Source of the DNA: Escherichia phage CMSTMSU
DNA length: 64,000 bases
Strand: one strand, 5' to 3'
Sequence record: MH494197.1
Position numbers and translations under genes: made by a program. Below, in pieces: positions 24,443 through 64,000 of this stretch (the stretch's first letter is position 1; each line of letters starts with the position of its first letter). The notes under the pieces are model-generated. The model was given only the letters and a program-made list of their open reading frames with translations, was not told where the DNA came from and made no database searches.

Positions 24443-25643
24443 TTATAGATAATACTTTCCAATGTAAAGTTTATTACTTAGTGATAGCTGGACGTGACAA
24501 GGTTTTTCTTGGTAGTAACGAGTTGATGATGTTTTATTTTCAGTCGGTGGGAAGAAAGGAGAACGGTATCCGTTCCATGTACCAAATGATACATGTTCGT
24601 TTAAATCCACATCCATTGTCATAATACCATTAGCATCAATTTCAACTGGATACGCACTGTATCGTTCAAATACATCAGTGTATTGAAGAATATAATCACC
24701 ATTACGACCATAATAACTTCTGGTTGTATTGTTCTTTACACCAAAGAACACACGATATGCTTGGTCACCAACTTTAGACATGAACGGTACGTTCTCGTTG
24801 AATCGTCCATTACTCATTATATCATCAGGATTGATTTCTTCGTACTTTACTTTCAAATCTTGTGCTTTAAACGACTTATCACTTATCAGTACTGGAATAT
24901 TGCTTTCACATAATGGGTTACTGCGATTTCGTTGGATATTTTGCCAAAATGCATTAGCTTTAACAATTTCATCTTGAACTGTAGTTTTTACATTCAGTGC
25001 AGCACTTGGTTCTAACGCATAAGTTTCAAGACGAGCATTAAGAGCATATGTCCACGAGTAGTATTATATACTAAGTGATATTTGGAACTCTTATCAGAAA
25101 ATGAAAACTCTTTAGTTTTCTTGATACAAATAGCATTTACTTTACCACAATAATAGTAATCTTCTTTATTGTGTCTAAAACCATCACCTACTTTCAATTT
25201 AGAAACAACTTCTTTTTGTTGTTCTTTCTTATTCTCCTTCTCAACCAATTTAGCAAAGGTTTTAGTTTTACCGTTAATTAGTTCTAAACTATTATTGAAG
25301 AACATAGGTTCAACAAATACACCCTTAACAATATCATTGTTGATGATAAGGTCGTTCATGTTTTTAGCACTCACCAAGAACTCGAAACCTTCAGGGTGAC
25401 GTATGGTGAAGTATGTTTCATGAGCATGAACAGTGAGCTTATGTACCACAGAAAATCCAATTGTAGGCACATTATCAATCCACAGTGAAGGTAGATTGTT
25501 TTTCTTAGCCCAGTACTCGGCCTTTTCTTTTTAGTCTCAAACGCTTTTGTGTGTGATTTTGTAGCATCTATAATGTAACCAGTAACTTGGTTATGATTTA
25601 CATATGAACGAGCCACAAATAACTTCTCTGGAAAATCCATCAA
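24443..25643 (-). CDS. hypothetical protein(s) (frameshift-fragmented)
   Basis: ORFs 25371-25643, 25012-25470, 24443-24856 linked through alternative frames. Confidence 0.3.
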
Positions 25644-25704
25644 ACAGTCCTCATTGTGCTAATTGCTTTTAATGTGTTAAACAATGCACCATATTTTACT
25701 TGCA

Positions 25705-26058
25705 TTAGTTGATCCCAGCAGGAAGATTCATACGCATAACAGACATGTCTTCAACCATTTCAGATGTACATAGTACTGCTACACATGTAGTTGCATCATT
25801 TAATCCGGCTTCATTGAATTTAGCGAATGGCACTTTTCCCTGCTTACAAAGGTCATCATAATAAGAATTTAACTTATCATGACCACCAGCATTTAGTACT
25901 ACAATAGTTTCGTGGTCATAATACCATTCATCAATAATAGTACTGAAAGCAGTACCTTCATATTCTTTAATTAGTTTTATGCCAGCATGAAATGCTTGAA
26001 TGCCAGCTTGTACACCTTGGCAGTACATGTTTGTTAAGCAATATAATTTCATTTCCAT
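25705..26058 (-). CDS. hypothetical protein
   Basis: 117 aa ORF. Confidence 0.4.
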   Translation of the reverse strand: MEMKLYCLTNMYCQGVQAGIQAFHAGIKLIKEYEGTAFSTIIDEWYYDHETIVVLNAGGHDKLNSYYDDLCKQGKVPFAKFNEAGLNDATTCVAVLCTSEMVEDMSVMRMNLPAGIN

Positions 26059-26557: not shown

Positions 26558-27627
26558 TTACCTTTTGAAGCGGTTAAATGAGTACTCATCTTTTTCTTTA
26601 CGTAAGTATCTCATCCCACCACTTTGGGGAGTTGCAAGAGTCAAATCACCAGTTAAGAACTGACTATCAATCCAGATACGATTACCATAAATGAGTGGGT
26701 CGGATACTGCGGTATGACCACTAAAGACGCAATGGATACCATCAAGTCTAGGGACGTAATATGTGTTATTTTTCTTGCAGTAGTCGAATGTATCACGTTC
26801 CCACAAGCACTTCTCAATTATATCAGCACTAAGTGATTTTGTCCCACTAACGAAACGTTCCCATGTTGTATATTCCAATGGAACACCAGCATGAACTAGT
26901 CCAATCTTCAATCCTCGGTGATTGATTTGGATAATCATAGGGAGTTCCTTTAAGTACTGACGAAAGAACTGTATACCTGTCTCACCAACTTCATCAAGAA
27001 ATTTATCACCACCATTACTTTGCCAGCAATGATACCAATCCCTCATTGTTTCGGAGTCCACACACATCATCTCGTGGTTCCCAGCAATCATAAAACGGTT
27101 TTCACCGAAAAGGAATTCAAACAGTAGTTTGGAATTCTGGTCACCACGGTCAATAACATCACCTACACAAAAACATAGTCATTATTGGTAATGCCAAATT
27201 CTTTCTTGGTAGCATCCCACAGTTTTCCATTACCGTGTAAATCACCAACGATATATAAATCTTTATCATCCGGTACTGTAACTTCCAAAAATGTTTCATT
27301 ATTGTTCCAACCATATAATGTTAGTGTGTTTTGTAACTTGTGTACCTGCAAAAGAACCATCTTTAAGATACGTATTAACTTTGAAACGCCATTCACCACC
27401 GCTAATATACATATCAGCGATAATGTACTTCCCATAACCCTTGAGTTTATCAAACGTACTTCTTGTCCAATATACTTCGGCTTCAAATCATTAATAAAAT
27501 CATCAGCCAAAGACATAAGATATCGCAAATGTGAATAGTCGGTGTTGAACATTATTTCTTTCTCTTGAAGTGGGATATGATATCTTTTGTTATTGAGATA
27601 AAAAGATACACCATAGTTACAGGCCAA
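26558..27627 (-). CDS. Ser/Thr protein phosphatase-family metallophosphatase with N-terminal extension
   Basis: GDLHGN, GDVIDRG (alternative frame), GNHE and GH motifs; fragments 27163-27627 and 26558-27091. Confidence 0.65.
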
Positions 27628-30194: not shown

Positions 30195-30455
30195 TCATTG
30201 TTCCTCGTATAATTCCATGTCATCAACTCCAACTTGGCGAATTGCAGTACTTCTTTTAAATGTACCTTTTTCATATAAACATACAGTTAAACGTATTTCA
30301 CACTTCAATGCACTGTAATAAATCATATCAATAACACCATATGTTTCATACATTTCTAAGTATACATTTCGTCCTAAGTACTTTTCTTCTAAATCAGTAA
30401 TTAGACTATTGATAAGATTACCTATCTGTGTTATATCTGTGTGAAATTTATCCAT
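30195..30455 (-). CDS. hypothetical protein
   Basis: 86 aa ORF. Confidence 0.35.
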   Translation of the reverse strand: MDKFHTDITQIGNLINSLITDLEEKYLGRNVYLEMYETYGVIDMIYYSALKCEIRLTVCLYEKGTFKRSTAIRQVGVDDMELYEEQ

Positions 30456-30644
30456 TACAATAATCCTCTCACATAAAACATTGATGAAAATAGATAATCT
30501 TCAGTACTGGAATTTAGTAGTTTATCAAAACTATAATTTTTATGCTTATTTTCATACAAAGACATTCTATAGTATCGTTCTATATTTTCTAAGTAGTCTT
30601 TTCGTAATAACATCTGTGTTGTTACATTCACTATAATGTACCTT

Positions 30645-30678
30645 AAAAGAAAAAGGGACCAATATATGATCCCTTTGT
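30645..30678 (-). terminator. terminator-like hairpin after pseT
   Basis: AAAGGGA - 11 nt loop - TCCCTTT with flanking A/T runs. Confidence 0.4.
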
Positions 30679-30679
30679 A

Positions 30680-31606
30680 TTAGAAATTTCCTTCAGCCAC
30701 TTGGAAAACTTTCAACCCAAGTAGCTTACGCCACATGAACACAACTTGATTGCGGTCATCATATACCTTTTAACATCGTAATGATCAACCACATTTTTCA
30801 TGTACAGGTCGAATTTGACAACATCATCAGGACGTTTATCATCAATGTCTCGCATAAACAATGCATCGTAAGGAATACCCCAATTCTTAAGCCACTGTTC
30901 GGTATCAGCACGACACCCTTCAGTACGCCCACTCATGACGATAATCTTGCGTTTATGAAAACTGCTTCTGCGATAATAGACAAAATAACTTCTTCGTCTG
31001 GTGTATCCGAGTACAGTACTTTCATCGAACGGGTTACGTCCCCATTTATGAGCAAGAGTACCGTCGATATCAACGATAATAGCAGCTTCTCGTGAATTAC
31101 CATAGTAACCAATGTGTAATGCCTTACTATAATAGTACGTATCTGCCATAGTGTCAATGATATTATCTTGTACTGAACGCTCACGCTGGAGGTTATATTT
31201 CTTACAAAGTTTTACGAACTCTTTAATCTTAAAGAATTCATGAACATCTGCACCACGGTCTTCATTAGGTACAAAATCATCATAGAAGTTCTTTTCTTTG
31301 TAATCATAACCATTATCTATAGCCCATACTTTCCATAGATTACGGAAATGTTGTTTAAGGTTTGTATCGGATATGATGATGTTCCAACCATTCTCTGCTG
31401 CTGAATTTGCTGCACTGAACTGTAAATTAGTTACGTACTGCTCATTAGCATCGTTGAATTTGTAAGCATCATGTGACCCAGCCATAGATTCACGAATATC
31501 ATCACGGTTGATGTTGATAGTCTTGGATTTGGCTTTTTAATCTCTTGCACTGCCCATGTAGTTTTACCACACCGTGCAATCCAACTGTTAGTGTGATAGT
31601 TGGCAT
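30680..31606 (-). CDS. pseT: polynucleotide 5'-kinase/3'-phosphatase
   Basis: P-loop region TLTVGLHG..GKTTWA (1-nt deletion), IISDTNL, HAD motif IVDIDGTLA, VMSGR, RKDDVVK all parallel T4 Pnk; RBS GAGGA. Confidence 0.85.
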
Positions 31607-31635
31607 CCTTTAATCCTCTAAAAATTTAACATGCT

Positions 31636-32055
31636 CTATATTATGATAGGTGAGCCATTCCTGTGGTGTTCCTTGCGTATTAAAACACCAATATACGCAA
31701 TACCATTAATTAGACCATTACTATCAGTATTCACATCAACTTTCACAATCTCGGAATCGTACCAGTGTTTGAATGTGTAATCCCAACATCTGACTTTCTT
31801 TCCAATAAGATTGCTCTTGTATTTGTCAATCATTTCATCGACGATAGTTTGTACTGAATTTTTAATTTCATCTTCTACTGACTTTATATATAGTAAATTA
31901 CTTTGTGCATTGTTTATCATTGTATTTCCCAATCCCAAATCGCTTGAGATTTTCACAAGTACAGATTCATCACAACGAATACTAGCAGTATCATTGGATG
32001 AACTGTACTTTAATGGGTCCACTGTAATTGAGATTCTTCTAGGAACTTGATACAT
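31636..32055 (-). CDS. hypothetical protein
   Basis: 139 aa ORF. Confidence 0.35.
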   Translation of the reverse strand: MYQVPRRISITVDPLKYSSSNDTASIRCDESVLVKISSDLGLGNTMINNAQSNLLYIKSVEDEIKNSVQTIVDEMIDKYKSNLIGKKVRCWDYTFKHWYDSEIVKVDVNTDSNGLINGIAYIGVLIRKEHHRNGSPIII

Positions 32056-32414
32056 CTGAAATAATCTTTCAAGGAAAGAAATTTAACTACTGACATATCC
32101 TGAACAATACTATGCTGAACTTCAACTTTCATATGAACTCCTTATAGTGGGTCGAATTTATTTTCACGTTTTGATGTATAGCGAGTTACATCATGTATTC
32201 TCGGCTTAACACCTTTTGGTTTCCTTTTCTTCTTGTATTCAGTACTACTACACCCGAAAGTATTCTCGATTCGTTTCTTACTAATCTTCACACCTTTCTT
32301 AGAGCGTTTGTGCTGTAATTCATCGATTTCTTCTTGTATTTTCCTGAATTCTGTCGGAGAAAGGGAACCGTCATTTTATACTTAGGTTTAGCCATCACTT
32401 CTCCTTGTGCTAGG

Positions 32415-33566
32415 CTAGATAGTACTAAAATCCTTTAGTACAATTTTCATGTACTTAATAAGAGTCTCTTTGTAATCGACTTTCTTATTGTTGTACATTG
32501 CAAAGGCCAAGCCCTGACGATTCAGTTCATTAGTTAAACACTCCTGAACCTTCTTAGCGAATTCCTTTCGCTCCAAGTGCTTGTGTTCCTTGACGAAGCT
32601 TTCAACTTCATCTTGTAAAGCATTATAGCACGAAAAGACTAGTTGTTCCATTCTTAATATCTTTTGGGTAGCATATTCGTCAGTACTGAACAACTGTTTT
32701 AAATCATCACTCGAACCATTTAATACAGCTTCATATAAATGGGAATCGATTATAATACTGTCTTTCGTTAAATGCAAAGAACAATACCAGTCGGTTTTGA
32801 TTTTGCACATTGTACCATTATTTAGGATGCACACAAAACCTTCAATGTCAAGCATTTTCTTAACTTCTTCAACACTTTCTTTGAATGTAGCACGAACAGG
32901 GAAAGTGTAATGAATATCTTTACCTGTCATGTTAGTACTGTACTGTGCAAGGCATGGGAACTTATTACGTAATGCAGAACCACATAATAGTTCACCACTC
33001 TTGCGATGGCGAACGTTTAGTACAAATATTTGTTCAACCCGGTATGGTAATACAATACGGTACTCTGGACTTGTATACTCCAGATTAACAGTATAGCCCA
33101 AACGGTCTGCTTCGTCAATGTATTGATACAAATTTTGGTTCTCATTGAGAAGACGAGTACTGTTAATCGCATGGTCTGAATACAATGCAGTATGTGATTT
33201 ACAACGAATTACACCATCATTATCACGGTAAGTACTGATTACTGAACCATCCAACTTAGGCATCACTACTGCAATGTCATCGAATGTGGTATCAGCAGGG
33301 AACATTGTAGTAGGATTTTCGTAAGCATTGAAGAACTTTTTCATAGTACGAGCAGCACAACGAATCATATCACCGTCTTCATCAATTTCCCACATAGAAC
33401 CACGGGTTTCTAATGCATTGGGTTGCATGAAATCGGTATATGATGCTAGACGATAACTGAATACACGATATGTTCCACCAGCAGGACTTTTATGATCCAC
33501 ATAAAAGAAAGCCTCACGAGTATTACATAAGTGCATTAAATCTTCATATATTTGTAAAAGGGTCAT
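32415..33566 (-). CDS. rnlA: RNA ligase 1 (T4 gp63-like)
   Basis: intact 383 aa ORF; FFY, YRVFSY, LETRGSMWE, KFFN..ENP, DGSVISTY, NRIVL, LNVRH, EGFV, KIKTDWY.SLH and GSSDDLK co-linear with T4 Rnl1. Confidence 0.88.
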   Translation of the reverse strand: MTLLQIYEDLMHLCNTREAFFYVDHKSPAGGTYRVFSYRLASYTDFMQPNALETRGSMWEIDEDGDMIRCAARTMKKFFNAYENPTTMFPADTTFDDIAVVMPKLDGSVISTYRDNDGVIRCKSHTALYSDHAINSTRLLNENQNLYQYIDEADRLGYTVNLEYTSPEYRIVLPYRVEQIFVLNVRHRKSGELLCGSALRNKFPCLAQYSTNMTGKDIHYTFPVRATFKESVEEVKKMLDIEGFVCILNNGTMCKIKTDWYCSLHLTKDSIIIDSHLYEAVLNGSSDDLKQLFSTDEYATQKILRMEQLVFSCYNALQDEVESFVKEHKHLERKEFAKKVQECLTNELNRQGLAFAMYNNKKVDYKETLIKYMKIVLKDFSTI

Positions 33567-33826
33567 TTTATTACCTCTATATCTACATCTGTGCCATAGT
33601 AGGAAACGTAACCATTATCTGAATTACATTGAATTGATAACTCTGATTCATAGTATGTTACTTTGATCACTGTTAGAACTTTTTCATCAATTTTTCCCGT
33701 TAAATAATCCATTTCACGAACACGAACTTTGGTTCCTTTTGGGAGTTCTTGTGCAATTTTATTAACAAGTTCAAAAGCAGCTTCTTCAAGTGTGTGCAAC
33801 AATTGCAATCTATCTTGGATATTCAT
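33563..33826 (-). CDS. hypothetical protein
   Basis: ORF 33563-33871, likely start MNIQDRLQLL. Confidence 0.3.
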   Translation of the reverse strand: MNIQDRLQLLHTLEEAAFELVNKIAQELPKGTKVRVREMDYLTGKIDEKVLTVIKVTYYESELSIQCNSDNGYVSYYGTDVDIEVIK

Positions 33827-33827
33827 G

Positions 33828-34274
33828 TTATTTCCACCAAGTTGTATCACGACCACCAGACAAAGATTCATTGTACTGATGCCTGAAATTAGTATTTGGA
33901 TTATTTGTCATTGTACTAATAAAATCAAATTTAACATTCTCTTGAATGTAATTAATAACATTATCTTTAAATTTAATAGTACTGAAATCTAAATCCAAAT
34001 GTTCATACAATACCGGATGACAAAACTCATGTGTACGCAACGATGGCATGGTATCCTTAATGTATTGCACAGTGTTAATCATTGCATTGTATTCAGGCAT
34101 AGCACGCATCATCATTAGCTGAAAGTGTTCTTCCTCTGACATTGACTCATCCAAATCAATAACGACTTCATCATTTTTAGAGTCATATACTTTAATGGAA
34201 CTCTTGGTTGGATCAAGCATAGCCCACTCTGGATACAGGCATGTTTTCCAAAAAGGATTATTGCACTGAAACAT
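33828..34274 (-). CDS. hypothetical protein with HExxH motif
   Basis: 148 aa; HEFCH may indicate a zinc metallopeptidase-like fold; single-motif evidence. Confidence 0.3.
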   Translation of the reverse strand: MFQCNNPFWKTCLYPEWAMLDPTKSSIKVYDSKNDEVVIDLDESMSEEEHFQLMMMRAMPEYNAMINTVQYIKDTMPSLRTHEFCHPVLYEHLDLDFSTIKFKDNVINYIQENVKFDFISTMTNNPNTNFRHQYNESLSGGRDTTWWK

Positions 34275-39709: not shown

Positions 39710-40238
39710 TTATTTCCTCATGTATTTTATTACATCTTCAAATAGTTTAGTTTTCAGTGCATCATCATTACGTAGAAAAGTACTGAAGCTATTAAAATCT
39801 TCATTCTTGGCAAACTCACGCATCTGTGTGGAACTGTAGCGACTTACATTTCGGTCAATTCCAGCTTGAACTGCCTTGATTGAACAAAAATTATATAACT
39901 TCCCATTGTACGTGTCAAGCGTTTTTGGAATGGTTCAAGTCTGTCTGAACCACATATGAAAAGAACATCTAAGTACTTTCCATCCAGTTCTCTCATTATA
40001 TCAAACAGATTATCTTCTGTATAGATATTTTCTTGTACAGATGGGTAAAATCCTTCTGTATAGTACATTTTCAGTTCAGGAGGTAATGGGTTTTGATGGC
40101 ATCAGTACTGGTACTAAGGAATATTTTCAAATCAGCATTGTACTGTTCTTGTAGTGCTTGAGCTTTTTCAAACACTAAACCATGACCTCGATGTACAGGG
40201 TTAATTCTTCCGAATGTCACTACGCATGTTTCTTTCAT
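39710..40238 (-). CDS. NadM-type nicotinamide-nucleotide adenylyltransferase-like protein (frameshift-fragmented)
   Basis: manual translation MKETCVVTFGRINPVHRGHGL (GRxxPxHxGH signature) and C-terminal SRYSSTQMR (ISxTxxR-like); includes ORF 39844-40068. Confidence 0.55.
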
Positions 40239-40311
40239 ATGTTCTTCATCACCTGACCAATAGATTTAAGATGGTTGATTTTAGCTGGAGTCAAATACTT
40301 ATCCAGTACTA

Positions 40312-40760
40312 TTAAACAACTAGGGAATGGAGCACTGTCAGTCTTTTATCTGGTTCTTCAGGGATACCGAACTTTAAGCGACCTTTTATAAAACAAATAC
40401 AATCACAAACTTTCGCAGCATAATCCTGAAAGGCTATAGTATCAGTTCTTGATGGTACGAGAATCAGTACTGTAGCACCTTTGTTATATGCATCAACTGC
40501 CTTAGATAACCACGTTTTCAAATCACTGTACGGTGGGTTGAGCCACACGATATTGTTTCCCAGTCCTGTTCAAGTGAATTGTCTTCTGGTGTAAAGAACT
40601 TATCACACAATGCAGTTTCTTTGACACACGCTGCATCTAGTGTAAATTCCCAGAGTTCATCCAAATCTTCAAAGAAATCCTTTGGAGTAGTCCAGTTATC
40701 TTTTCCAGTACTGAAATGTACTGATTGTTTTTCTTCGAAGCATCCTTCTTCGACATACAT
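40312..40760 (-). CDS. Dam-like DNA N6-adenine methyltransferase (frameshift-fragmented)
   Basis: WTTPKDFFEDL, FTLDAAC, CDKFFT and NPPY (motif IV) arranged as in small phage Dam MTases; ORFs 40518-40760 and 40312-40548. Confidence 0.65.
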
Positions 40761-54859: not shown

Positions 54860-55250
54860 CGGAAGTGTTTCTCGTAGAACTCATCATCACTTAACATATA
54901 ATCAGGTGTTTCTACTTCTATGGGTTTGTAGAATGTTTCTGGAATGTGTGTAATTTTATTTGGTTGTACTTTATGTTCGCGTAAAACCTTCTGTATAGCT
55001 CCTAGGCGTTGTAAATCAATACAGGTGGGCAGAACTAAGCTGTACTGAAATAGCTCATCAGGGTCATTATAGATACATCCTTGGCTTGTTTGATTTTATT
55101 GTTGGCATCAATGAATATATCAAATCCAAGTACTGCATTATAGCTTACATATGTTGTTTTGTTTTTGTCAATAGCTGCACTTAAACTATATCCATATATT
55201 CCATGTTGGTCAACAATGCATCGTTGCATAATTTTAATCATTTCGAACAT
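54860..55250 (-). CDS. FQxS-module family protein (frameshifted)
   Basis: ORF 55035-55250; alternative frame reads DPDELFQYSLVLPTCIDLQ. Confidence 0.35.
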
Positions 55251-55259
55251 AATTTACCT

Positions 55260-55595
55260 CGTATGTGTTATAATTCCACGTTTTAACACTATCCATTTGT
55301 ATATCCTGAACTTCATGGAAATATTTAAGTACCTTCTGGTATTCCATTAGTTCGTACACATCTTCAGTATTGACAGTGCTCTCCTGAAACAATTCCTCTT
55401 CTGATAAAGTACTATAATCAGGATTTTTATTTCAGAATATATCTCATTCATATATGAATCATTTTGGTAAATCTGTAGATAAAACTGATTATATTCAGGG
55501 ATATAGGTTACGAAATGGTTCTTGATGAATTCATATCTTGAAGCAAAGCAATCATTGCCATCCGTCATGTACTGAATTGTTGTTGTATTATGCAT
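55260..55595 (-). CDS. FQxS-module family protein (frameshifted)
   Basis: ORF 55347-55595; alternative frame reads LSEEELFQESTVNTEDVYEL. Confidence 0.35.
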
Positions 55596-56070
55596 TCAAA
55601 TAATCCACGCATTTATGGTATACATCTAAATCTAAAAAGAATCGTTGTTTGTATTTGTAATGATGAAGTAGTGCACCATAAAGTAATATAGCATTAAGTA
55701 CTTTTGCATCATGAATACAAGACCCTTGGAAGTACATTTCTTCAGTCATGAAAACTAACTCATTGTAAGGGATAAGCACTGAATCTCTAAATGTATCAAT
55801 GTTAATCTTCAAATCGGACCCTTGGCAATATGAAATATATTCACCTCTGTAATGAAAGTCATTATCGTCAAAGTACTCAGCATATACTTGATTGTTCCTA
55901 TTATTTTTAAAGGCAAGTCTTCCTTTGGTTGAACTGAATTGGTCATATTGGAACATTCCACCAAAAGGCATTCCACCGAAAGGTTGGGGACTTCTGAACT
56001 CCTTTGCAATGCGATGAATGTTAGATGCAAATTCTAAAACACCATCGTAATCATATTCTGTTGTAATCAT
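55588..56070 (-). CDS. FQxS-module family protein
   Basis: 160 aa; TEEMYFQGSCIHDAKVLNAILLYG. Confidence 0.5.
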   Translation of the reverse strand: MITTEYDYDGVLEFASNIHRIAKEFRSPQPFGGMPFGGMFQYDQFSSTKGRLAFKNNRNNQVYAEYFDDNDFHYRGEYISYCQGSDLKINIDTFRDSVLIPYNELVFMTEEMYFQGSCIHDAKVLNAILLYGALLHHYKYKQRFFLDLDVYHKCVDYLNA

Positions 56071-56113
56071 AGACCATTTTTCTCCATGTACTCAATGATT
56101 TCATCTACGAAGT

Positions 56114-56400
56114 TTAAATCCATATAGAATCTATCATTTGCGTCATTGAGTTCATCTTTAAGTACTGTAAAAATTGTAGAACTAAACACGATTCTCTCAT
56201 TGTACAAAGTACTGTACTGGAAGAATTCTTCTTCTGATCTAACATTAAATGTGTCATATTCATCATCAACATCAGATCAGGATGATAGTACTTAAAACTA
56301 TCAGATGTATGGAAACAATATGAGATAAAATCCTGATGGTGCATCGTCAAGTACACGAATACCACAGAAATTCTCATCTGTAGTATGCAACAAATTGCTA
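56114..56400 (-). CDS. FQxS-module family protein (frameshifted)
   Basis: alternative frame of ORF 56114-56377 reads SEEEFFQYSTLYNERIVF. Confidence 0.35.
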
Positions 56401-56601
56401 TTCATTGACAAATAATTTTTGTACGCATAAAGTGTGCATCTTGGGAGAATTATATTCTCTTTAACTGTTACAAGGAACTTATGAAGTTTAATGATATTTT
56501 GTGCGATTTTTTGTGCATTGCTAAATGATAGGTCTTTGACATTGTGATATAACCCTTTACAATTAATATAAAGAGATTATATCACAAAGATTTGGAGGGT
56601 G

Positions 56602-57134
56602 TCAAGAGTTCTCACGAAGTTCTACCATTTCTTTCCATACTAAATGGTAATCTTCTAAGTCCAGATAGAAGTCTTCATTTAAGTGCTCATATAAGTACTT
56701 GTACATGAATAGTACACCTAAATTATATTCAGTATTAAGTAATGATTGTTGGAAGTAGTTTTCTTCATTTAGTTCTATATCCATGAACTCAAATCTACCT
56801 AGACCTTTTAATGTACGTATCTCAACATGTGAAGTATCTGTTTTACTGAAGCACATGAATCCACCTCTAAATTCGGATCATATTCACATTCATACTGTCC
56901 ACTGTTATTATAGAAATCTCTATTACCATCCTTATCTTTTGGCTTAACAACTGATACGTGAAGGTCGTCATCTTTGTACATTGTACGTTCTGGCGTTTTC
57001 ACACATTTTAACTTATTTTCTTTAATGTACTTGATAATATCAATTATATCTTGTGCAGTACTGATTGCTGCCTCAAACGTATCCAACTTAAGATGATTGT
57101 ATAGAGTTCCCTCGTTCTTTATTTTATCTAACAT
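56602..57134 (-). CDS. FQxS-module family protein (frameshift-fragmented)
   Basis: ORFs 56808-57134 and 56602-56856; NEENYFQQSLLNTEY ... FYLDLEDYH. Confidence 0.45.
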
Positions 57135-57140
57135 AAAACC

Positions 57141-57479
57141 TCATAGTTCATACATCTTTGATTTGAATTGCATTGGTCCACCAACTTCACATGGATAATT
57201 TTCCATAATACGATTCAAAAGTATCTGGTACTGTTGTAGTACTTCAATTTCCAAATGTATACTACTATCCAGTACTAATGACTCCTGAAACAATTCACCT
57301 CTATCTAAACCTGAAAAATCATTTATAGTTAGCATTGGCTTATCATTTGTACGCAATGTAAATGATTCCTCATTTCGGATTAATGTACAGAATTCATTAT
57401 GTTTTCTGTTGTAATCCATTTTAACCAATAATAACTTGGTGTGAGTTGCGTACATTATTTTTACTAATTCAGTCTTCAT
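57141..57479 (-). CDS. FQxS-module family protein
   Basis: 112 aa; DRGELFQESLVLDSS. Confidence 0.5.
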   Translation of the reverse strand: MKTELVKIMYATHTKLLLVKMDYNRKHNEFCTLIRNEESFTLRTNDKPMLTINDFSGLDRGELFQESLVLDSSIHLEIEVLQQYQILLNRIMENYPCEVGGPMQFKSKMYEL

Positions 57480-57750
57480 AACGGAATAAAATTCTCCTGT
57501 ACTGCTCCGGCTTAGTACTCAATCTCTTCACTGGATAATTGTCGAAGATCCTTTTCATTTCTTTCTGGATTAAACAAAGAAAATCAAAATCACAATAGTA
57601 TTTTTTATCCCATACTAAACTTTCTTGAAACAACTCATCTTCTTGCATTAGCGTAGTATCAATTGTATCTTCACGTGTATTTGAGTACGCTTCATGACAT
57701 TGAAAACCATCCTCGGATAATCCTAATGTATATGCCGCCATTTCAAACAT
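57469..57750 (-). CDS. FQxS-module family protein
   Basis: 93 aa; QEDELFQESLVWDKKYY. Confidence 0.5.
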   Translation of the reverse strand: MFEMAAYTLGLSEDGFQCHEAYSNTREDTIDTTLMQEDELFQESLVWDKKYYCDFDFLCLIQKEMKRIFDNYPVKRLSTKPEQYRRILFRYED

Positions 57751-57832
57751 ATCATCATTTGTCTTTAACGAAAGTAAACAACAAACGTATTTTTCGTTGT
57801 GTAGTAAGTAATGCTAATGGTATTCATTGGAT

Positions 57833-58435
57833 TTAAACCTCAGTATAAAGCTTACAATAGCTTTCATCGAAATCAAAAATACTTCTCAAGAACTGACAAA
57901 GGTCAGTAAAAATATTTACATTTGCTATATACACATTATCAAATTCTGTTCTTTCGAAGAATGTATGCATAGAATTTGTAATATATCTCATTGCAGATTC
58001 ACGCTGCATTGTTATATCATTTGTGAACATCGCATCTTCATCAGTACTGACTAATTCAATATCAAATGATTGCATATATGGGATACTCTTCCCTAGTGCA
58101 AAGCTATCACCGTATGATGCTTCAACTGCACCTTTAGAATACACCAATTGATATAAGTCCGAAATAGGGTTATAAAAAGTACGACATATTGATGAACATA
58201 ATTTATTATCTATCCAAAAGAAAACCCTATTTGTATTACCGTCAAATGCTATACGCAATCCATCACCATCTAACGATATATCACCATCGAGATTAAAAGA
58301 GAACTGAACTAATGCTTTTTCTAAGTCCATTCTTTTGTGATAAATGATTTCTTGCATATAGATAATATCATTTACTAATTTCTTAAAATACAAATGAACC
58401 TCAGTACTACAACATTTATTTGCATTTAATAACAT
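57833..58435 (-). CDS. hypothetical protein
   Basis: intact 200 aa ORF. Confidence 0.4.
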   Translation of the reverse strand: MLLNANKCCSTEVHLYFKKLVNDIIYMQEIIYHKRMDLEKALVQFSFNLDGDISLDGDGLRIAFDGNTNRVFFWIDNKLCSSICRTFYNPISDLYQLVYSKGAVEASYGDSFALGKSIPYMQSFDIELVSTDEDAMFTNDITMQRESAMRYITNSMHTFFERTEFDNVYIANVNIFTDLCQFLRSIFDFDESYCKLYTEV

Positions 58436-58484
58436 AGTAGATCCTTATACATTGCATGTATTCTTACAATGTCTCTGTAATAAC

Positions 58485-58918
58485 TCATATCTTCACGATT
58501 ATCATTAAAACAGTAACACTGAATACAGCAGTACTAATTGAACTATCAACAATGTACTCTTTTAATTTATTATAAAGATATATGCACTTAGTAGATGTAT
58601 CATCCCACATAAGACTATTTTGAAAGATGTTTTCTTCTGTGTTAGGATATAAGTACTGCTCAATCTTGTACCCCAATGAACTATCACAGTTTTTATATAC
58701 AGAAATAGATGGACATTCATATTGCACATAATACTAATAACATTATCATTGTATGTAGAAATTAAACTGGTACTGGATGCTACACTTTCATCGTAATTCA
58801 GTACTGAAATTCTTGCATTATCTGTGCAGTACAGATGTTTCATTCCACCTCTCATAGCTAGAGTAAGAAATTTATCAGTGAACCATATTCCTTTTGTTTT
58901 CAGTATAGTTTCATGCAT
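58485..58918 (-). CDS. FQxS-module family protein (frameshift-fragmented)
   Basis: ORFs 58562-58918 and 58485-58727; TEENIFQNSLMWDD. Confidence 0.45.
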
Positions 58919-58966
58919 AAGATAAGTTTCAATGAAGATTTTACACGCTCAAATGCCAAGTCAAGT

Positions 58967-59158
58967 TCATTGTACATAACGAATATCCTTCTGTAAGGAA
59001 TCAATATATTCTTTAACAACTTGTTCCTGATACTGTGTGCCCAAATACATCAGTACTTTTAACTCTTTGAATTCAGTACTATATGAGTCGGTTTGCATCA
59101 TTTTAGAAGAATATATATTGAATAGTTTAGCAATATCATCTTGGTCTATTATTTTCAT
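58967..59158 (-). CDS. hypothetical protein
   Basis: 63 aa ORF. Confidence 0.3.
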   Translation of the reverse strand: MKIIDQDDIAKLFNIYSSKMMQTDSYSTEFKELKVLMYLGTQYQEQVVKEYIDSLQKDIRYVQ

Positions 59159-59203
59159 TAACCCTCTTCTGAATAAGTTCCTGTAAGTGCTGAATATAAC
59201 CCT

Positions 59204-59841
59204 TCATTGCAACATCCTGTTTGTTAGAGCCAACGAAGAACAAGAGCTTAAAGTCATGGTAATCCATTTTGGTTTAGTAGTGAACCATATGTCCCACACT
59301 GCACTCACAGTTCTCATGTATTCAATTCGATTAAATGTTTTGAATACTTCATCGAAATCAACCTTTAATAAATTGATATTTAAATTACTGTTAAATGCCA
59401 TCTGCAATTCCATATAGAACTGAATAATAGCATAGTCAGGATCAGTACAAGATAGTTGAAAGCACTGTTCTTCAAATGAATTGTAATTGTACTTAGGAAT
59501 ATTAATAGTACGATATAACTCTGGATAACCCCATATCATAGTGTACACGTCAATTTCAGTACACTTTTTCTTAAAAGTCATCTGTCGAATAGTTTCAGAT
59601 CTGGATTCAAGGTATACAACATTCTTATGAACTGCTGAACCAATTGAAATCAATGATGTATCAATGACGTGTTTTCCACGTATCTCACACTTCTGGAATG
59701 CACCATTCCCTGTAAAAGTTTATGGAAATCGTACTTCTCACTAATAACTGTACTAGGATCGATTAAACCAGTACTGCATTTTTCAGTACTGGTACGATAG
59801 TGCGAATCTTTTTGATAAATCTTGTAATGCATCATAATCAT
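59204..59841 (-). CDS. FQxS-module family protein (frameshift-fragmented)
   Basis: ORFs 59650-59841 and 59204-59653; FEEQCFQLSCTDPDY. Confidence 0.45.
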
Positions 59842-59914
59842 TAATGTTAATTTTTCTCAAAGGATGCCTCTTCTATAGTAACGAAATCAACTAACCTATC
59901 AAGTTTTTCAGTGT

Positions 59915-60298
59915 CTAGATAAAATATATCCAGTACTGACTTCTGATATAGTACACTAAATGTACATAGATTGTCAAGTGTTCCTTCATTATAAACAGTA
60001 CTTCGAAGTACCCTTCTTCTGTACTCAGAGATAAAATATCAGAAATTTTAAAAGATTCTTCATTCTCATGACGCTCTATCGTAACTTCATCATATTTTCT
60101 GTTCAATGAAATATAATCGTATGCTAATTCAATAGTACTACAGTTGTTGTTGCTAGTGTCAAATAAAGAATCAATTGTAATCTTCGTGCCATTAGAAACT
60201 TCTCTTCGTTCATCATCTACGTATTCAGGATTTTCTTTGAAGAACTTAACAACTTTTAGAATATCATTTGCTTTCTTGATTGCACTTTCGTAACTCAT
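59915..60298 (-). CDS. FQxS-module family protein (variant)
   Basis: 127 aa; STEEGYFEVL. Confidence 0.4.
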   Translation of the reverse strand: MSYESAIKKANDILKVVKFFKENPEYVDDERREVSNGTKITIDSLFDTSNNNCSTIELAYDYISLNRKYDEVTIERHENEESFKISDILSLSTEEGYFEVLFIMKEHLTIYVHLVYYIRSQYWIYFI

Positions 60299-60382
60299 TT
60301 TTTCTGGACTCCATATATATCACCTGATTTAGTTCATATACATAATCTAAATCAATGAATATAGAATTATTAAAGTTCTCTT

Positions 60383-60565
60383 TCAGAAATGCATTAAAAC
60401 TACTAAAGCTCTTAATGCACTATTTGGGTATATAGTACTGTACTGGAAGTAAGCATCTTCTGAATTTAAGAATAGTACTTCTTCTTCGGTGAATTCAAAA
60501 TATTTTCCACTTTCATCGATTGAATAGAAAGTTCCAGAATCCCATACGAAGTACTTGAATTCCAA
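60383..60565 (-). CDS. FQxS-module family protein
   Basis: NSEDAYFQYSTIYPN; N-terminus likely further upstream. Confidence 0.4.
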   Translation of the reverse strand: MEFKYFVWDSGTFYSIDESGKYFEFTEEEVLFLNSEDAYFQYSTIYPNSALRALVVLMHF

Positions 60566-60734
60566 ATCATAATCATGGGACTCGTACTTATATTCATTAC
60601 CTAATCCTAGAATATCTGTACCAACACTTATAGTACTAATATATGCCCTTTATAGTCTAAGTACTTTACATTATTTTGAAAGAACTTTACTATATTAACT
60701 AATTCCTCAGCGTGCTTAAGATCACTTTCGTACA

Positions 60735-61109
60735 TTATATTTCAATCTCTATATATTTTTGGGTAATTAAGTAATCCCAGTAGTACTTCACATGTTTTTG
60801 TATCTCAAGTAAAGCATAAAAATTAATTCTCTTGTCCCATACAAGTGATTCCTGAAAAATAAATGATTCATGGTCATCTCTGTAATCACATTCAAGGAAG
60901 TCAGGAATATAATCACAATCGTGAAGATATTCAATCATTAAAGATTCATTACATCTTCTAACGGCAAGGTGCTGGAAATTATCATGATCGAAGAAATACA
61001 TTAAACTAATTGTACCGGAATGTACTGAATACTGTATAAGAATTTCATCGTTTGCCCTTATGTTCGGTACGTACATATTCATAATCCAAATAAAATCTTG
61101 TGCTATCAA
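60735..61109 (-). CDS. FQxS-module family protein
   Basis: 124 aa; DDHESFIFQESLVWDKRINFY. Confidence 0.45.
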   Translation of the reverse strand: MIAQDFIWIMNMYVPNIRANDEILIQYSVHSGTISLMYFFDHDNFQHLAVRRCNESLMIEYLHDCDYIPDFLECDYRDDHESFIFQESLVWDKRINFYALLEIQKHVKYYWDYLITQKYIEIEI

Positions 61110-61227
61110 TACTTTTAAAGTACCACATAATAACTAAAGTATCTAGTACTTCATCATCATACAAAGTACTATTCTGAAAGTAATACTCTTCACTATCCCA
61201 CGGACCTTTCAGTACTTCAAAGTTCAA
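61045..61227 (-). CDS. FQxS-module family protein
   Basis: VLKGPWDSEEYYFQNSTLYDDEVLDTLVIMWYFKS ... FYLDYEYV; may be fused to 60735-61109 by a frameshift. Confidence 0.45.
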   Translation of the reverse strand: MNFEVLKGPWDSEEYYFQNSTLYDDEVLDTLVIMWYFKSIDSTRFYLDYEYVRTEHKGKR

Positions 61228-61229
61228 TT

Positions 61230-61745
61230 TTAACGGTCTACTGCGATTATAAAACGGATTTCACCTCCATATGCATAACTAATAAATTCTGCATCTGGAT
61301 TGTATTGTGAAAAATCTGCTGGACTTTTGGAATTCAAACCAAGAATAACTGTAGTTGTAGCAAAATCACTATCCTTGTAGTAGTTACCATTCTCGGCTTT
61401 GTATACTTCTTCGAACTTCCCAGCCTTAATATCTTCAATATATGCCTGTAGTTCTTTTGCTTTATCAAGAGCACTTCGTAATGACATTATCTTCCCTACA
61501 GTATTCTCTACGTATTCATAATCGAAATAGAAACTACTAGAGCCAATACTTTTAAAGTACCACATAATTACAATAACATCTAATTCTTCTTCATTGTACA
61601 CAGTACTGTTCTGGAAGTAATATTCTTCACTATCCCACGGACCTTCCAGTACTGAATACGGAATGATTGTGTCATCATCATCGTAATCAGGGCTGTAAAT
61701 TATAATATCTTCATCTCTACAATAACTAATGTACTGATTGTACAT
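61230..61745 (-). CDS. FQxS-module family protein
   Basis: 171 aa; PYSVLEGPWDSEEYYFQNSTVYNEEELDVIVIMWYFKS ... FYFDYEYV. Confidence 0.5.
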   Translation of the reverse strand: MYNQYISYCRDEDIIIYSPDYDDDDTIIPYSVLEGPWDSEEYYFQNSTVYNEEELDVIVIMWYFKSIGSSSFYFDYEYVENTVGKIMSLRSALDKAKELQAYIEDIKAGKFEEVYKAENGNYYKDSDFATTTVILGLNSKSPADFSQYNPDAEFISYAYGGEIRFIIAVDR

Positions 61746-61905
61746 ATGATATTCACAGTCATCAGTATCACCCGTATCAGTGTGTAGTACTAACGTTTCT
61801 GCACATATCTCTGACTCATCATAATCGTCGCGGTCTTTTACAAAAATTCAGTATCAGATGTTTTATACACACGGCACTGAACCTTCTTGTACCATAATCA
61901 TGTAA

Positions 61906-62103
61906 TCATGAATCTTCTTTGCTTCTTTCAATGCACTTTCTAATGACATTACTAATCCCTGTACTTAAATATTCACATGCTCCCCAGTCAAGGAAGAAGG
62001 GTTCAAAATTCAATTCCTTAAAGTACCACAAAACAACCAAGGAATCAAGCATTTCTTGGTTAAAAATAAGACTCTGTTGGAAGTAATACTCTTCAGTACC
62101 CAC
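61906..62103 (-). CDS. FQxS-module family protein
   Basis: TEEYYFQQSLIFNQEMLDSLVVLWYFKE; N-terminal part in another frame to about 62350. Confidence 0.45.
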   Translation of the reverse strand: MGTEEYYFQQSLIFNQEMLDSLVVLWYFKELNFEPFFLDWGACEYLSTGISNVIRKCIERSKEDS

Positions 62104-62363
62104 GGCCCATCAAGTACCCGAAGTCAACAGGTGTATTTGATGTGTCAAAAGTAATCTTAGTACGGAATATATACAAAGAAACTAGTATATTGACTACATG
62201 AAGAGTACTGTATAGTATTGTCTTTATCATGGCCCATAAGTAAAATATCATCAGAGTATGTCTTTATACCTGATAGATAATACTCATTACCAAATGCACT
62301 TACTTTATCACCATAGAAACCACTTTTATGTTATCGTGGAAGTGATGTATTTTGTGTGCCAGT

Positions 62364-62738
62364 TTAAGTGCACTTGCTAAACTCATATATCCTCTTTAAT
62401 AACTCGTAGTAGATCCAAGTCCAGATAGAAGCTAGGACAATCGGTATTATTAAAGTACCACAGAATGACAAGCTTGTCAAGCACATATTCCTCGTAGATA
62501 GTATTCTGCTGGAAGTAGAACTCTTCACTTCCCAGTCATTATCCAGTACTGAATACGGAAGATGTTTCTCTGCTGCACCAGTTATAATGTCAGTATATTG
62601 TATTAAAATATCAGCATCACGACAGAAGTACATGTAATTATCTTCCAGATTAACATCACACCCAGTGAGTGTTGTTTCAGAAGAATCTAAGTTTTCTTCG
62701 TACATGTGAATGTACTCACTACTGTCATCGTATATCAT
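62364..62738 (-). CDS. FQxS-module family protein (frameshifted)
   Basis: LPYSVLDNDWE then, after a 1-nt shift, SEEFYFQQNTIYEEYVLDKLVILWYFNN ... FYLDLD. Confidence 0.45.
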   Translation of the reverse strand: MIYDDSSEYIHMYEENLDSSETTLTGCDVNLEDNYMYFCRDADILIQYTDIITGAAEKHLPYSVLDNDWEVKSSTSSRILSTRNMCLTSLSFCGTLIIPIVLASIWTWIYYELLKRIYEFSKCT

Positions 62739-63124
62739 TCGACAATAAGCTTTACCTTCCTTGAATAGATACCCATTGAGACGATTGAGTACTATTTCCT
62801 TTTACATAAATCAATTAACTTAGCAATTTCTAATGCTCTTGTAAAACTCATATCAACTCCTGTGTTGTGTCTTGATATAATCTCGGTACACCATGTGAAT
62901 ATTAGCTATATACAATTCACTAATATCATATGTACCGAAGTTCATGTCATTCCTAATGCTGTTGTTATGTCTAATATCAATTACGAATCGTCGAAGTATT
63001 GTATTCATGAATGATTCCATTTGTTCTTTTTATTCATAGCTTAAAACGATACCTATCTTTGAATCAGACTCTATACAGATTCTTCTATATTCTTTCATCT
63101 TCTGTTGGAGTTCAATTACTTCCT

Positions 63125-63448
63125 CTAGTGTACACAAGTACTTTTGTCAAATATTAATGACTCTTGAAATATTTCAGCCTCACCATGTACTGTTGTATAG
63201 TCTTTCATATTTTCTACAACTGTTCCTTTGGACTGATAATCAATGAAGCTAAAGTAAGCACCATTAAATTTAATGTACTGATCCATTTTGTGTTCATAAT
63301 CACCTTTGTTAAGATTGCAATACACTTCTAGCGAAGTACTAATCTTAGGTATAAACATAGAAAAATCATATTCCATATTACTCACCTGTATTGAAATAAT
63401 AATTACTTGTTGTTGGTGTAGATGTATCAAAGGTGTTTTCTTTAACAT
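63125..63448 (-). CDS. FQxS-module family protein
   Basis: N-domain MEYDFSMF ... CNLNKGDYEH and C-module HGEAEIFQESLIFDK. Confidence 0.45.
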   Translation of the reverse strand: MLKKTPLIHLHQQQVIIISIQVSNMEYDFSMFIPKISTSLEVYCNLNKGDYEHKMDQYIKFNGAYFSFIDYQSKGTVVENMKDYTTVHGEAEIFQESLIFDKSTCVH

Positions 63449-63743
63449 ATCTCTTCATTTCATTTTGTATAAAAATCATATCTTCTATTGTACATGAGTA
63501 CTTATTCTTGTCAAACACCAAAGAAGCTTGAAATAGTTCAGCATTATCTAGTACTGTATAATCTGTAATACTTTCAGAGTTATAGTCGAAGTCATCATGT
63601 AATACATCAATGAAATTAAAACACAAATCGGAGTACTGAATATATAAACTCAACTCATGTTCCGAATCACCCTTGATAAGATTACAGCATAAATCCCATC
63701 CTGTTCTGGACCTGCAAACGTACATTGAATAATCATATGTCAT
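63378..63743 (-). CDS. FQxS-module family protein
   Basis: 121 aa; N-domain MTYDYSMY ... CNLIKGDSEH; C-module YTVLDNAELFQASLVFDKNKY ... IQNEMKRY. Confidence 0.5.
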   Translation of the reverse strand: MTYDYSMYVCRSRTGWDLCCNLIKGDSEHELSLYIQYSDLCFNFIDVLHDDFDYNSESITDYTVLDNAELFQASLVFDKNKYSCTIEDMIFIQNEMKRYVKENTFDTSTPTTSNYYFNTGE

Positions 63744-64000
63744 TATGTAATTCCTATATTGAATTTGTATTCTTGATTAATACTTACATTGGATGTATTC
63801 AAAGCAGCATACTCTTTCATTTCATTTTGTATAGCAATTACTTCTTCTAGTGTACACAAGTACTTCTTATCAAATACTAATGCAGCTTGGAATAGTTCAG
63901 CGGCATCCATTACTGTATAATCCGGCATATCTTGATGTGGATACTGTAATGAATCGTAATCAATAAATGTAAATTTACCCTGAGTGTAATGAATATACTC
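63743..64000 (-). CDS. FQxS-module family protein (5' end beyond window)
   Basis: YTVMDAAELFQAALVFDKKY ... IQNEMKEY; upstream in-frame coding continues to the window edge. Confidence 0.45.
   Translation of the reverse strand, partial: EYIHYTQGKFTFIDYDSLQYPHQDMPDYTVMDAAELFQAALVFDKKYLCTLEEVIAIQNEMKEYAALNTSNVSINQEYKFNIGIT

What the first reader, a model, noticed from the sequence alone, without database searches (positions are those of the whole stretch)
30680..33566. T4-type RNA repair pair: polynucleotide kinase/phosphatase plus RNA ligase 1
Pnk (30680-31606) and Rnl1 (32415-33566) sit about 0.8 kb apart. In T4 this pair heals and seals tRNA cleaved by host anticodon nucleases such as PrrC. 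Their presence implies the host lineage uses tRNA-targeting defence, and it anchors this phage to T4-like biology even though the local gene order (pseT ... ligase ... cd ... phoH ... nrdD, nrdG) differs from T4.
Basis: partly seen in the sequence, partly recalled or inferred. Interest (0 to 1): 0.5.

Follow-up and report, generated by a model that had tools for sequence, protein, structure and literature searches.

The report
T4-type Pnk plus Rnl1 pair
A PBECO4-like (Asteriusvirus) jumbo coliphage carries clear homologues of the phage T4 RNA-repair enzymes polynucleotide kinase/phosphatase and RNA ligase 1; they are already annotated in its close relatives, and the frameshifts in the kinase gene are sequencing errors, so the finding is real but ordinary.

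Summary
Window 30680-31606 (minus strand) encodes a T4-type Pnk. Window 32425-33566 (ORF as read: 32415-33566, minus strand) encodes a T4-type Rnl1. Both match the T4 enzymes over their full length (PDB 1LTQ E 1e-38; 2C5U E 2.5e-56; PHROG 505 and 562). All kinase, phosphatase and ligase catalytic residues checked are conserved, with one exception: motif Ia Lys119 of Rnl1 is His in this clade.

The window is an Asteriusvirus, 99.3% identical to Escherichia phage Turkey3. Relatives already annotate both genes.

Pnk is split across three reading frames by about six indels. All lie in homopolymers or CCWGG sites. The same error pattern hits 84 of 94 ORFs in the window and 30 of 30 CCWGG sites. This is a nanopore/Dcm signature, not pseudogenisation.

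Klebsiella jumbo phages share it too.

The anti-anticodon-nuclease role is inferred from T4, not shown here.

Novelty: already known. Interest: low.

The parts
32425..33566 (-). Rnl1 (T4 RNA ligase 1 / gp63 homologue), 380 aa in relatives. The window ORF runs on to 32415 because of a 1-nt homopolymer deletion near 32427.
   Evidence: E 2.5e-56 to T4 Rnl1 (2C5U). Pfam RNA_lig_T4_1 plus T4_Rnl1_C. Motif I is K104-L-D-G. R54, K75, F76/77, E159, E227, G228, K240 and K242 (T4 numbering) are invariant.
32142..32395 (-). s3: an 84-aa, very basic small ORF directly downstream of Rnl1. It carries 1 indel in the window. Function unknown.
   Evidence: (phrog_15306). It is 99-100% identical in G17 and SD-2_S15, and matches over a 37-residue stretch at 32% identity in Klebsiella phage RCIP0023.
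31898..32132 (-). s2: a 78-aa conserved small ORF. It carries 2 indels in the window. Function unknown; predicted beta-beta-alpha-beta-beta-alpha fold.
31610..31920 (-). s1: a 103-aa variable small ORF. It is absent in Salmonella phage SD-2_S15, replaced or duplicated in G17, and there are three different small ORFs at this position in RCIP0023.
   Evidence: (phrog_31355).
30680..31606 (-). Pnk (T4 PseT homologue: N-terminal P-loop 5'-kinase plus C-terminal HAD 3'-phosphatase), 310 aa. It is split over three frames in the window by about six indels at homopolymers and CCWGG sites.
   Evidence: E 1.1e-38 to T4 Pnk (1LTQ). K15, D35, R38, R126, D165, D167, R176, R213, D254 and D278 (T4 numbering) are invariant in alignment A5.
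30652..30676 (-). Intrinsic-terminator-like hairpin (10-bp stem, then a T run) starting 4 nt after the Pnk stop codon. It closes the Rnl1-to-Pnk block.
   Evidence: A terminator is annotated at the same place (ARNOLD) in phage G17.

Best explanation
The region is the RNA healing-and-sealing module of an Asteriusvirus (PBECO4-like) jumbo coliphage.

The proposed mechanism follows T4:
1. Pnk's C-terminal HAD phosphatase removes the 2',3'-cyclic or 3'-phosphate from a broken RNA.
2. Its N-terminal P-loop kinase phosphorylates the 5'-OH.
3. Rnl1 then joins the 3'-OH and 5'-PO4 ends through a lysyl-AMP intermediate on K104. Its C-terminal helical domain biases it towards breaks in tRNA anticodon loops.

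As in T4, the most likely use is to reverse tRNA cleavage by host anticodon nucleases of the PrrC/RloC/HEPN type during infection.

The genes run in the same direction and end in a terminator: Rnl1, s3, s2, s1, Pnk, terminator. They are probably co-transcribed.

What is shown: homology, domain architecture, conservation of catalytic residues, conserved gene order, and that the frameshifts are assembly errors. What is inferred: enzymatic activity, tRNA as the substrate, the counter-defence role, and co-transcription.
For: - Full-length matches to the T4 enzymes and their families.
- Pnk catalytic residues are invariant in a 6-sequence alignment spanning T4, jumbo phages, an Aeromonas phage and actinophages.
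- Rnl1 nucleotidyltransferase motifs I, III, IV and V and the N-subdomain residues R54, K75 and F76 are invariant across 8 diverse homologues. PMC6379707 reports that R54 and K75 are essential and contact the ATP gamma-phosphate.
- The Rnl1-specific C-domain is present (Pfam T4_Rnl1_C 1.3e-16). PMC6379707, citing Wang et al. 2007, attributes tRNA-repair specificity to this domain.
- The order Rnl1, small ORFs, Pnk is shared by T4, three Asteriusvirus variants and Klebsiella phage RCIP0023.
- A terminator follows Pnk.
- Intact versions of both genes exist in 33 or more related genomes that cover at least 80% of the region.
- The window's frameshifts are artefacts. There are 307 deletions against 17 insertions relative to Turkey3, 191 of them in runs of 4 or more. 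84 of 94 ORFs of at least 100 aa are hit, including DNA ligase, NrdD and PhoH. 30 of 30 CCWGG sites are miscalled, against 0 of 17 GGWCC control sites with indels.
- Enteric hosts are documented to carry several anticodon nucleases (PMC13043305; PMC7824862).
Against: - No biochemical or genetic data exist for this phage.
- No host anticodon nuclease was examined.
- Rnl1 motif Ia Lys119 is His in this clade. From my memory of Wang et al. 2003, Lys119 is essential in T4; I could not read the paper.
- Pnk carries an insertion of roughly 20 aa in the kinase domain that T4 lacks.
- In T4, Rnl1 also acts as a tail-fibre attachment factor, so RNA repair need not be its only role.
- Taken literally, the window sequence does not encode an intact Pnk.
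Confidence: 0.85

Rival explanations
1. Pnk is a genuine pseudogene in this isolate. The frameshifts are real, so only Rnl1 is functional and the repair pathway is broken.
For: As read, the window gives only a 257-aa ORF that lacks the P-loop and the last phosphatase motif.
Against: - All Pnk indels lie in homopolymers or CCWGG sites.
- The same kind of indel hits 84 of 94 ORFs, including DNA ligase (4 indel bases), NrdD (5) and PhoH (6).
- The deletion:insertion ratio is 307:17.
- 30 of 30 CCWGG sites are miscalled, while 0 of 17 GGWCC sites have indels.
- A phage with this many broken genes, including DNA ligase, NrdD and PhoH, is unlikely to be viable, so these are basecalling and assembly errors.
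Confidence: 0.03
2. The two enzymes are real, but their main role here is not counter-defence. Rnl1 would act chiefly as a tail-fibre attachment catalyst, as T4 gp63 does. Pnk would act as a general nucleic-acid end-processing enzyme, a DNA 3'-phosphatase/5'-kinase used in replication or repair.
For: - PHROG 562 and several GenBank records label the ligase 'RNA ligase and tail fiber protein attachment catalyst'.
- DNA ligase, metallophosphoesterases and nucleotide-metabolism genes lie downstream in the same transcription direction.
- T4 Pnk is known to act on DNA ends as well (established knowledge).
Against: - The complete set of ligase catalytic residues is under purifying selection across distant clades, and so is the tRNA-specificity C-domain. 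Neither is needed for the tail-fibre activity, which in T4 is separable from ligation (established knowledge, from memory).
- The tight linkage of Rnl1 with Pnk across T4, Asteriusvirus and Klebsiella jumbo phages argues for a joint healing-and-sealing function.
Confidence: 0.1
3. The genes are DNA-repair kinase and ligase homologues mislabelled as RNA-repair enzymes.
For: Pnk gives weak sub-threshold hits to generic P-loop families (KTI12, Zeta_toxin, AAA). One relative annotates it as 'zeta toxin' (H25).
Against: - The top hits for both proteins are the T4 RNA-repair enzymes, and for Pnk also the bacterial RNA-repair protein Pnkp1, PDB 4XRP.
- Rnl1 gave no Pfam match to any DNA-ligase family and no DNA-ligase match in the PDB sequence search.
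- A separate T4 gp30-type DNA ligase is encoded 6.3 kb downstream.
Confidence: 0.02

Closest known systems
Phage T4 polynucleotide kinase/phosphatase (PseT; PDB 1LTQ, 1RC8, 2IA5)
   Same: It has the same two-domain architecture: an N-terminal P-loop kinase and a C-terminal HAD phosphatase. It is 38% identical. K15, D35, R38, R126, D165, D167, R176, R213, D254 and D278 are all conserved. It occupies the same position downstream of rnlA.
   Different: S16 is Thr. There is an insertion of roughly 20 aa after strand 'KNF' in the kinase domain, shared with Klebsiella jumbo phage RCIP0023. There are deletions in the phosphatase domain (T4 residues about 221-227).
Phage T4 RNA ligase 1 (RnlA/gp63; PDB 2C5U, 5TT6, 9DO4)
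   Same: It is 38% identical. The N-subdomain, NTase core and Rnl1-specific C-domain are all present. Motifs I, III, IV and V and R54/K75/F76 are conserved.
   Different: Motif Ia Lys119 is His throughout the jumbo-phage clade. There is a 16-aa insertion between motifs IIIa and IV. The C-domain is more divergent.
Annotated orthologues in Asteriusvirus genomes (PBECO4 gp125/gp129, Turkey3 XMR01090/XMR01086, G17_00482/00487, 121Q, phAPEC6, and others)
   Same: The DNA is 92-99% identical, with the same genes in the same order. They are already labelled polynucleotide kinase and RNA ligase 1.
   Different: The window copy carries assembly-type indels. The number of small ORFs between the two genes varies from 2 to 4 among relatives.
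Bacterial Pnkp1 of the Pnkp1-Rnl-Hen1 RNA repair system (Capnocytophaga gingivalis, PDB 4XRP)
   Same: It is collinear over the whole protein, E 5.8e-32, with the same kinase-plus-HAD architecture.
   Different: It is cellular and works with an Rnl4-type ligase and the Hen1 methyltransferase. No Hen1 is annotated in the Turkey3 segment that corresponds to the window.

Membership tests
T4 Pnk (PseT) family | N-terminal P-loop kinase with Walker A motif GxxGxGK[ST] | tested here: met
   'GLPGCGKT' at residues 9-16 after correction. In the raw window these codons are split by the CCAGG-site miscall at 31574/5.
T4 Pnk (PseT) family | Kinase catalytic residues Asp35, Arg38 and Arg126 (T4 numbering) | tested here: met
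   All three are invariant in the 6-sequence alignment A5. R126 looked displaced by one position in the 3-sequence alignment but aligns in the broader one.
T4 Pnk (PseT) family | C-terminal HAD phosphatase with DxDxT nucleophile motif plus Arg176, Arg213, Asp254 and Asp278 | tested here: met
   'DIDGT' is intact even in the raw window ORF. All listed residues are invariant. Pfam HAD_PNKP 1.7e-43.
T4 Pnk (PseT) family | 5'-kinase and 3'-phosphatase activity on RNA ends | not testable with these tools
   This needs purified protein.
Rnl1 family of ATP-dependent RNA ligases | Motif I KxDG with the adenylylated lysine | tested here: met
   K104-L-D-G-S aligns with T4 K99-E-D-G-S.
Rnl1 family of ATP-dependent RNA ligases | Motifs III (E159), IV (E227, G228) and V (K240, K242), and N-subdomain residues R54, K75 and F76/77 | tested here: met
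   All are invariant across 8 homologues. The roles of R54, K75 and F76 are taken from PMC6379707.
Rnl1 family of ATP-dependent RNA ligases | Motif Ia Ser118-Lys119 | tested here: inconclusive
   Ser is conserved. Lys119 is His in Asteriusvirus and Klebsiella RCIP0023, and Arg in Caulobacter phage CcrSC. The essentiality of K119 in T4 is recalled from Wang et al. 2003 and was not verified here (the paper is not held).
Rnl1 family of ATP-dependent RNA ligases | Rnl1-specific all-helical C-terminal domain; ligase families are defined by the domains appended to the NTase core (PMC6379707) | tested here: met
   Pfam T4_Rnl1_C at E 1.3e-16, covering residues 268-381 against profile positions 1-115 of 122.
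T4-type anti-anticodon-nuclease tRNA repair pathway | Pnk and Rnl1 encoded together in the same phage and in the same orientation | tested here: met
T4-type anti-anticodon-nuclease tRNA repair pathway | Both genes are required for growth on a host expressing an anticodon nuclease (PrrC or similar) | not testable with these tools
   This needs phage genetics on prr+ or other ACNase+ hosts.

The most novel reading that the evidence does not exclude
The two small proteins that always follow Rnl1 in the jumbo phages related to PBECO4 may be dedicated accessory subunits of the RNA-repair module. One is s3, basic and 84 aa. The other is s2, 78 aa, at least 64% identical in every homologue found, and as conserved as Rnl1 itself between Asteriusvirus and Klebsiella phage RCIP0023. 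They could, for example, recruit tRNA or sense or inhibit an anticodon nuclease. That would make this a four-component variant of the T4 two-enzyme pathway.
Probability: 0.08. Interest if true: 0.45.

Novelty: already known. Interest (0 to 1): 0.12.

Why it matters
It matters little as a discovery. T4-type Pnk and Rnl1 are textbook enzymes. They occur in more than 1,500 (Rnl1) and more than 2,000 (Pnk) phage genomes in the collection searched. They are annotated in the close relatives of this window. They have also been discussed for jumbo phages in the literature (PMC5259590, PMC7824862).

The useful outcomes are practical:
- The window comes from an error-rich, nanopore-type assembly, so any 'pseudogene' or 'frameshift' seen in it should be distrusted.
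- The rnlA, small ORFs, pseT arrangement is an old syntenic block conserved between T4 and these jumbo phages.
- The presence of the pair is a reasonable but untested hint that these phages meet tRNA-cleaving defences in enteric hosts.

Tried and rejected
- Real pseudogenisation of Pnk. Rejected on the window-wide error profile.
- DNA-repair kinase or ligase identity. Rejected on best hits and domain content.
- Homology of the intervening small ORFs to T4 alc or pseT.1-3. No blastp similarity.
- The 399-aa ORF next to DNA ligase, tested as a possible second RNA ligase or RlaP. No Pfam or PDB sequence match.
- tRNA genes or known RNA families in the window. None found.
- Sigma-70-like promoters in the block. 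No more than expected by chance: 26 found against 27.7 expected.
- Verifying the T4 Rnl1 mutational data from the primary paper. The paper is not held and the text search was unhelpful, so I used PMC6379707 and flagged memory instead.

Full report
**What the window is.** Region 30400-33900 is 99.3% identical to Escherichia phage Turkey3 (PQ471515.1). It is 92-98.5% identical to about 30 other E. coli and Salmonella jumbo phages of 320-385 kb, including PBECO4, the type species of Asteriusvirus. All genes in the region lie on the window's minus strand. The GC skew is negative throughout the window.

- Rnl1 is the ORF at 32415-33566.
- Pnk against T4 Pnk (PDB 1LTQ) gives E 1.1e-38. Pnk against bacterial Pnkp1 (4XRP) gives E 5.8e-32.
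- Rnl1 against T4 Rnl1 (2C5U, 5TT6, 9DO4) gives E about 1e-56.
- Pfam finds HAD_PNKP (1.7e-43) plus AAA_33 in Pnk. It finds RNA_lig_T4_1 plus T4_Rnl1_C (1.3e-16) in the ligase.
- PHROG 505 'polynucleotide kinase' (8e-95) and PHROG 562 'RNA ligase and tail fiber protein attachment catalyst' (3e-107) match end to end.

**Frameshifts.** As read, Pnk is only a 257-aa ORF (30712-31485). The P-loop and the last phosphatase motif fall in other frames.
- Against Turkey3 the gene carries about six indels. All lie in A or T runs or in CCWGG sites.
- Across the whole window there are 307 deletions against 17 insertions. Of the deletions, 191 lie in homopolymers of 4 or more bases.
- 84 of 94 Turkey3 ORFs of at least 100 aa carry at least one indel in the window. 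These include DNA ligase, NrdD, NrdG, PhoH and ClpP.
- 30 of 30 CCWGG sites are miscalled (26 by indels). By contrast, 0 of 17 GGWCC sites and 1 of 89 GATC sites carry indels.

This is the signature of an unpolished nanopore assembly of Dcm-methylated DNA. It is not gene decay. Stitching the frames gives a Pnk that matches Turkey3's 310-aa protein. Rnl1 has one such deletion near 32427, which changes only the last residues.

**Catalytic residues of Pnk.** I aligned T4, Turkey3, Klebsiella RCIP0023, Aeromonas Ah1, Mycobacterium NoSleep and Streptomyces BRock.
- Invariant kinase residues (T4 numbering): G9, G14, K15, T17, D35, R38 and R126.
- Invariant phosphatase residues: D165, D167, G168, T169, R176, S211, G212, R213, D254, D277, D278 and R279.
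- That these are the essential residues is from established mutational work on T4 Pnk (Wang and Shuman 2002; my memory).
- Differences from T4: S16 is Thr, and an insertion of roughly 20 aa in the kinase domain is shared with RCIP0023.

**Catalytic residues of Rnl1.** I aligned 8 homologues.
- Invariant residues: R54, K75, F76, F77, K99 (K104 here, in 'KLDG'), D101, G102, S103, E159, E227, G228, K240, K242 and Y246.
- PMC6379707 states that R54 and K75 are essential and contact the ATP gamma-phosphate, that F76 contacts adenine, and that the C-domain confers specificity for tRNA anticodon-loop repair.
- The one deviation is motif Ia. S118 is kept, but K119 is His in the Asteriusvirus and Klebsiella jumbo clade and Arg in CcrSC.

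**Gene order.** T4 reads rnlA, alc, pseT.3, pseT.2, pseT.1, pseT, cd.5 to cd.1, cd, and then DNA ligase gp30 further on, all in one direction. The homologous stretch of Turkey3 reads Rnl1, three small ORFs, Pnk, about 16 small ORFs including a NinI-like metallophosphoesterase, DNA ligase, cd, Sir2, PhoH, NrdD and NrdG.

The order Rnl1, small ORFs, Pnk is therefore the T4 arrangement.
- It also holds in G17/121Q (four small ORFs), Salmonella SD-2_S15 (two; its Pnk is present but labelled 'hypothetical') and Klebsiella RCIP0023 (five).
- The small ORFs are not similar to the T4 ones.
- A terminator-like hairpin at 30676-30652 directly follows Pnk. G17 has a terminator annotated at the same place.

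**Small ORFs between the two genes.** The two that follow Rnl1 are conserved in every variant examined. These are s3 (84 aa, basic) and s2 (78 aa). The others vary.
- The s2 search returned 35 protein clusters, all at least 64% identical. Every cluster with a source name is from a jumbo phage related to PBECO4: GAP32, CBB, fHe-Yen9-04, pEa_SNUABM_50 and Klebsiella phages.
- No function could be assigned. A role in the repair module is possible but unsupported.

[quoted passage not shown] This would reverse cleavage by anticodon nucleases. The T4, PrrC and tRNA-Lys paradigm comes from Amitsur et al. 1987, as cited in PMC6379707. Enteric bacteria carry several such nucleases (PMC13043305). The use of Rnl1 and PNK-HAD proteins by jumbo phages has been reviewed (PMC7824862). 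The CBB genome paper already links its rnlA homologue to tRNA repair (PMC5259590). Activity, substrate and counter-defence role are inferred here, not shown.

**Distribution and novelty.** Rnl1 homologues occur in 1,581 phage records and Pnk homologues in 2,065. The window's genes are annotated as such in most close relatives. Interest is low.

Noticed in passing
whole window (1-64000): The window has a systematic error profile relative to phage Turkey3. There are 307 deletions against 17 insertions. About 41% of A5/T5 runs carry an indel. All 30 CCWGG (Dcm) sites are miscalled, while GGWCC and GATC sites are essentially clean. This is an unpolished nanopore-type assembly of Dcm-methylated DNA, and 84 of 94 ORFs of at least 100 aa are frameshifted. 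It also implies that the phage's cytosines are accessible to host Dcm, so they are not hypermodified as in T4.
   Followed up: yes
window 26558-27299 (-): A 247-aa NinI/lambda-phosphatase-like calcineurin-type metallophosphoesterase (Pfam Metallophos 9e-12; PHROG 246 6e-65) lies 3.4 kb downstream of Pnk. It also weakly matches the phosphatase part of a 737-position 'RNA ligase' PHROG profile (phrog_8238, 4.6e-7). It could be a further RNA end-healing enzyme, since lambda phosphatase has 2',3'-cyclic phosphodiesterase activity (PMC2190708). This is untested.
   Followed up: partly
window 25640-26052 (-): A 137-aa ORF annotated 'serine/threonine protein phosphatase' in Turkey3 shows no phosphatase signal. 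It gives a borderline Pfam hit to peptidyl-tRNA hydrolase PTH2 (E 1.2e-4, 22.7 bits against a cut-off of 23) and matches PHROG 3668 'hydrolase'. The annotation is probably wrong. A tRNA-related hydrolase is possible.
   Followed up: partly
window 31898-32395 (-): Two small ORFs, s3 (basic, 84 aa) and s2 (78 aa), follow Rnl1 in every Asteriusvirus variant examined and in Klebsiella phage RCIP0023. All 35 s2 homologue clusters found are at least 64% identical, and those with a source name come from jumbo phages related to PBECO4. s2 has an ACT/ferredoxin-like predicted fold. Function unknown.
   Followed up: partly
window about 55000-64000 (Turkey3 39.2-49.4 kb): There are tandem arrays of paralogous small genes. 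Two families have six members each (about 112-138 aa and about 146-164 aa), and there are smaller pairs. All are annotated as hypothetical.
   Followed up: no
window 40235-40756 (-) and 39710-40238 (-): A phage Dam-like N6-adenine methyltransferase (Pfam Dam 5e-32) sits next to a cytidylyltransferase-like (HIGH nucleotidyltransferase) protein that Turkey3 annotates as phosphopantetheine adenylyltransferase.
   Followed up: no
L006 (Salmonella phage SD-2_S15) 582-1514; Sharanji record (H25): The Pnk orthologue is annotated 'hypothetical protein' in several Salmonella Asteriusvirus records and 'zeta toxin' in phage Sharanji. These are annotation inconsistencies, not gene loss.
   Followed up: yes
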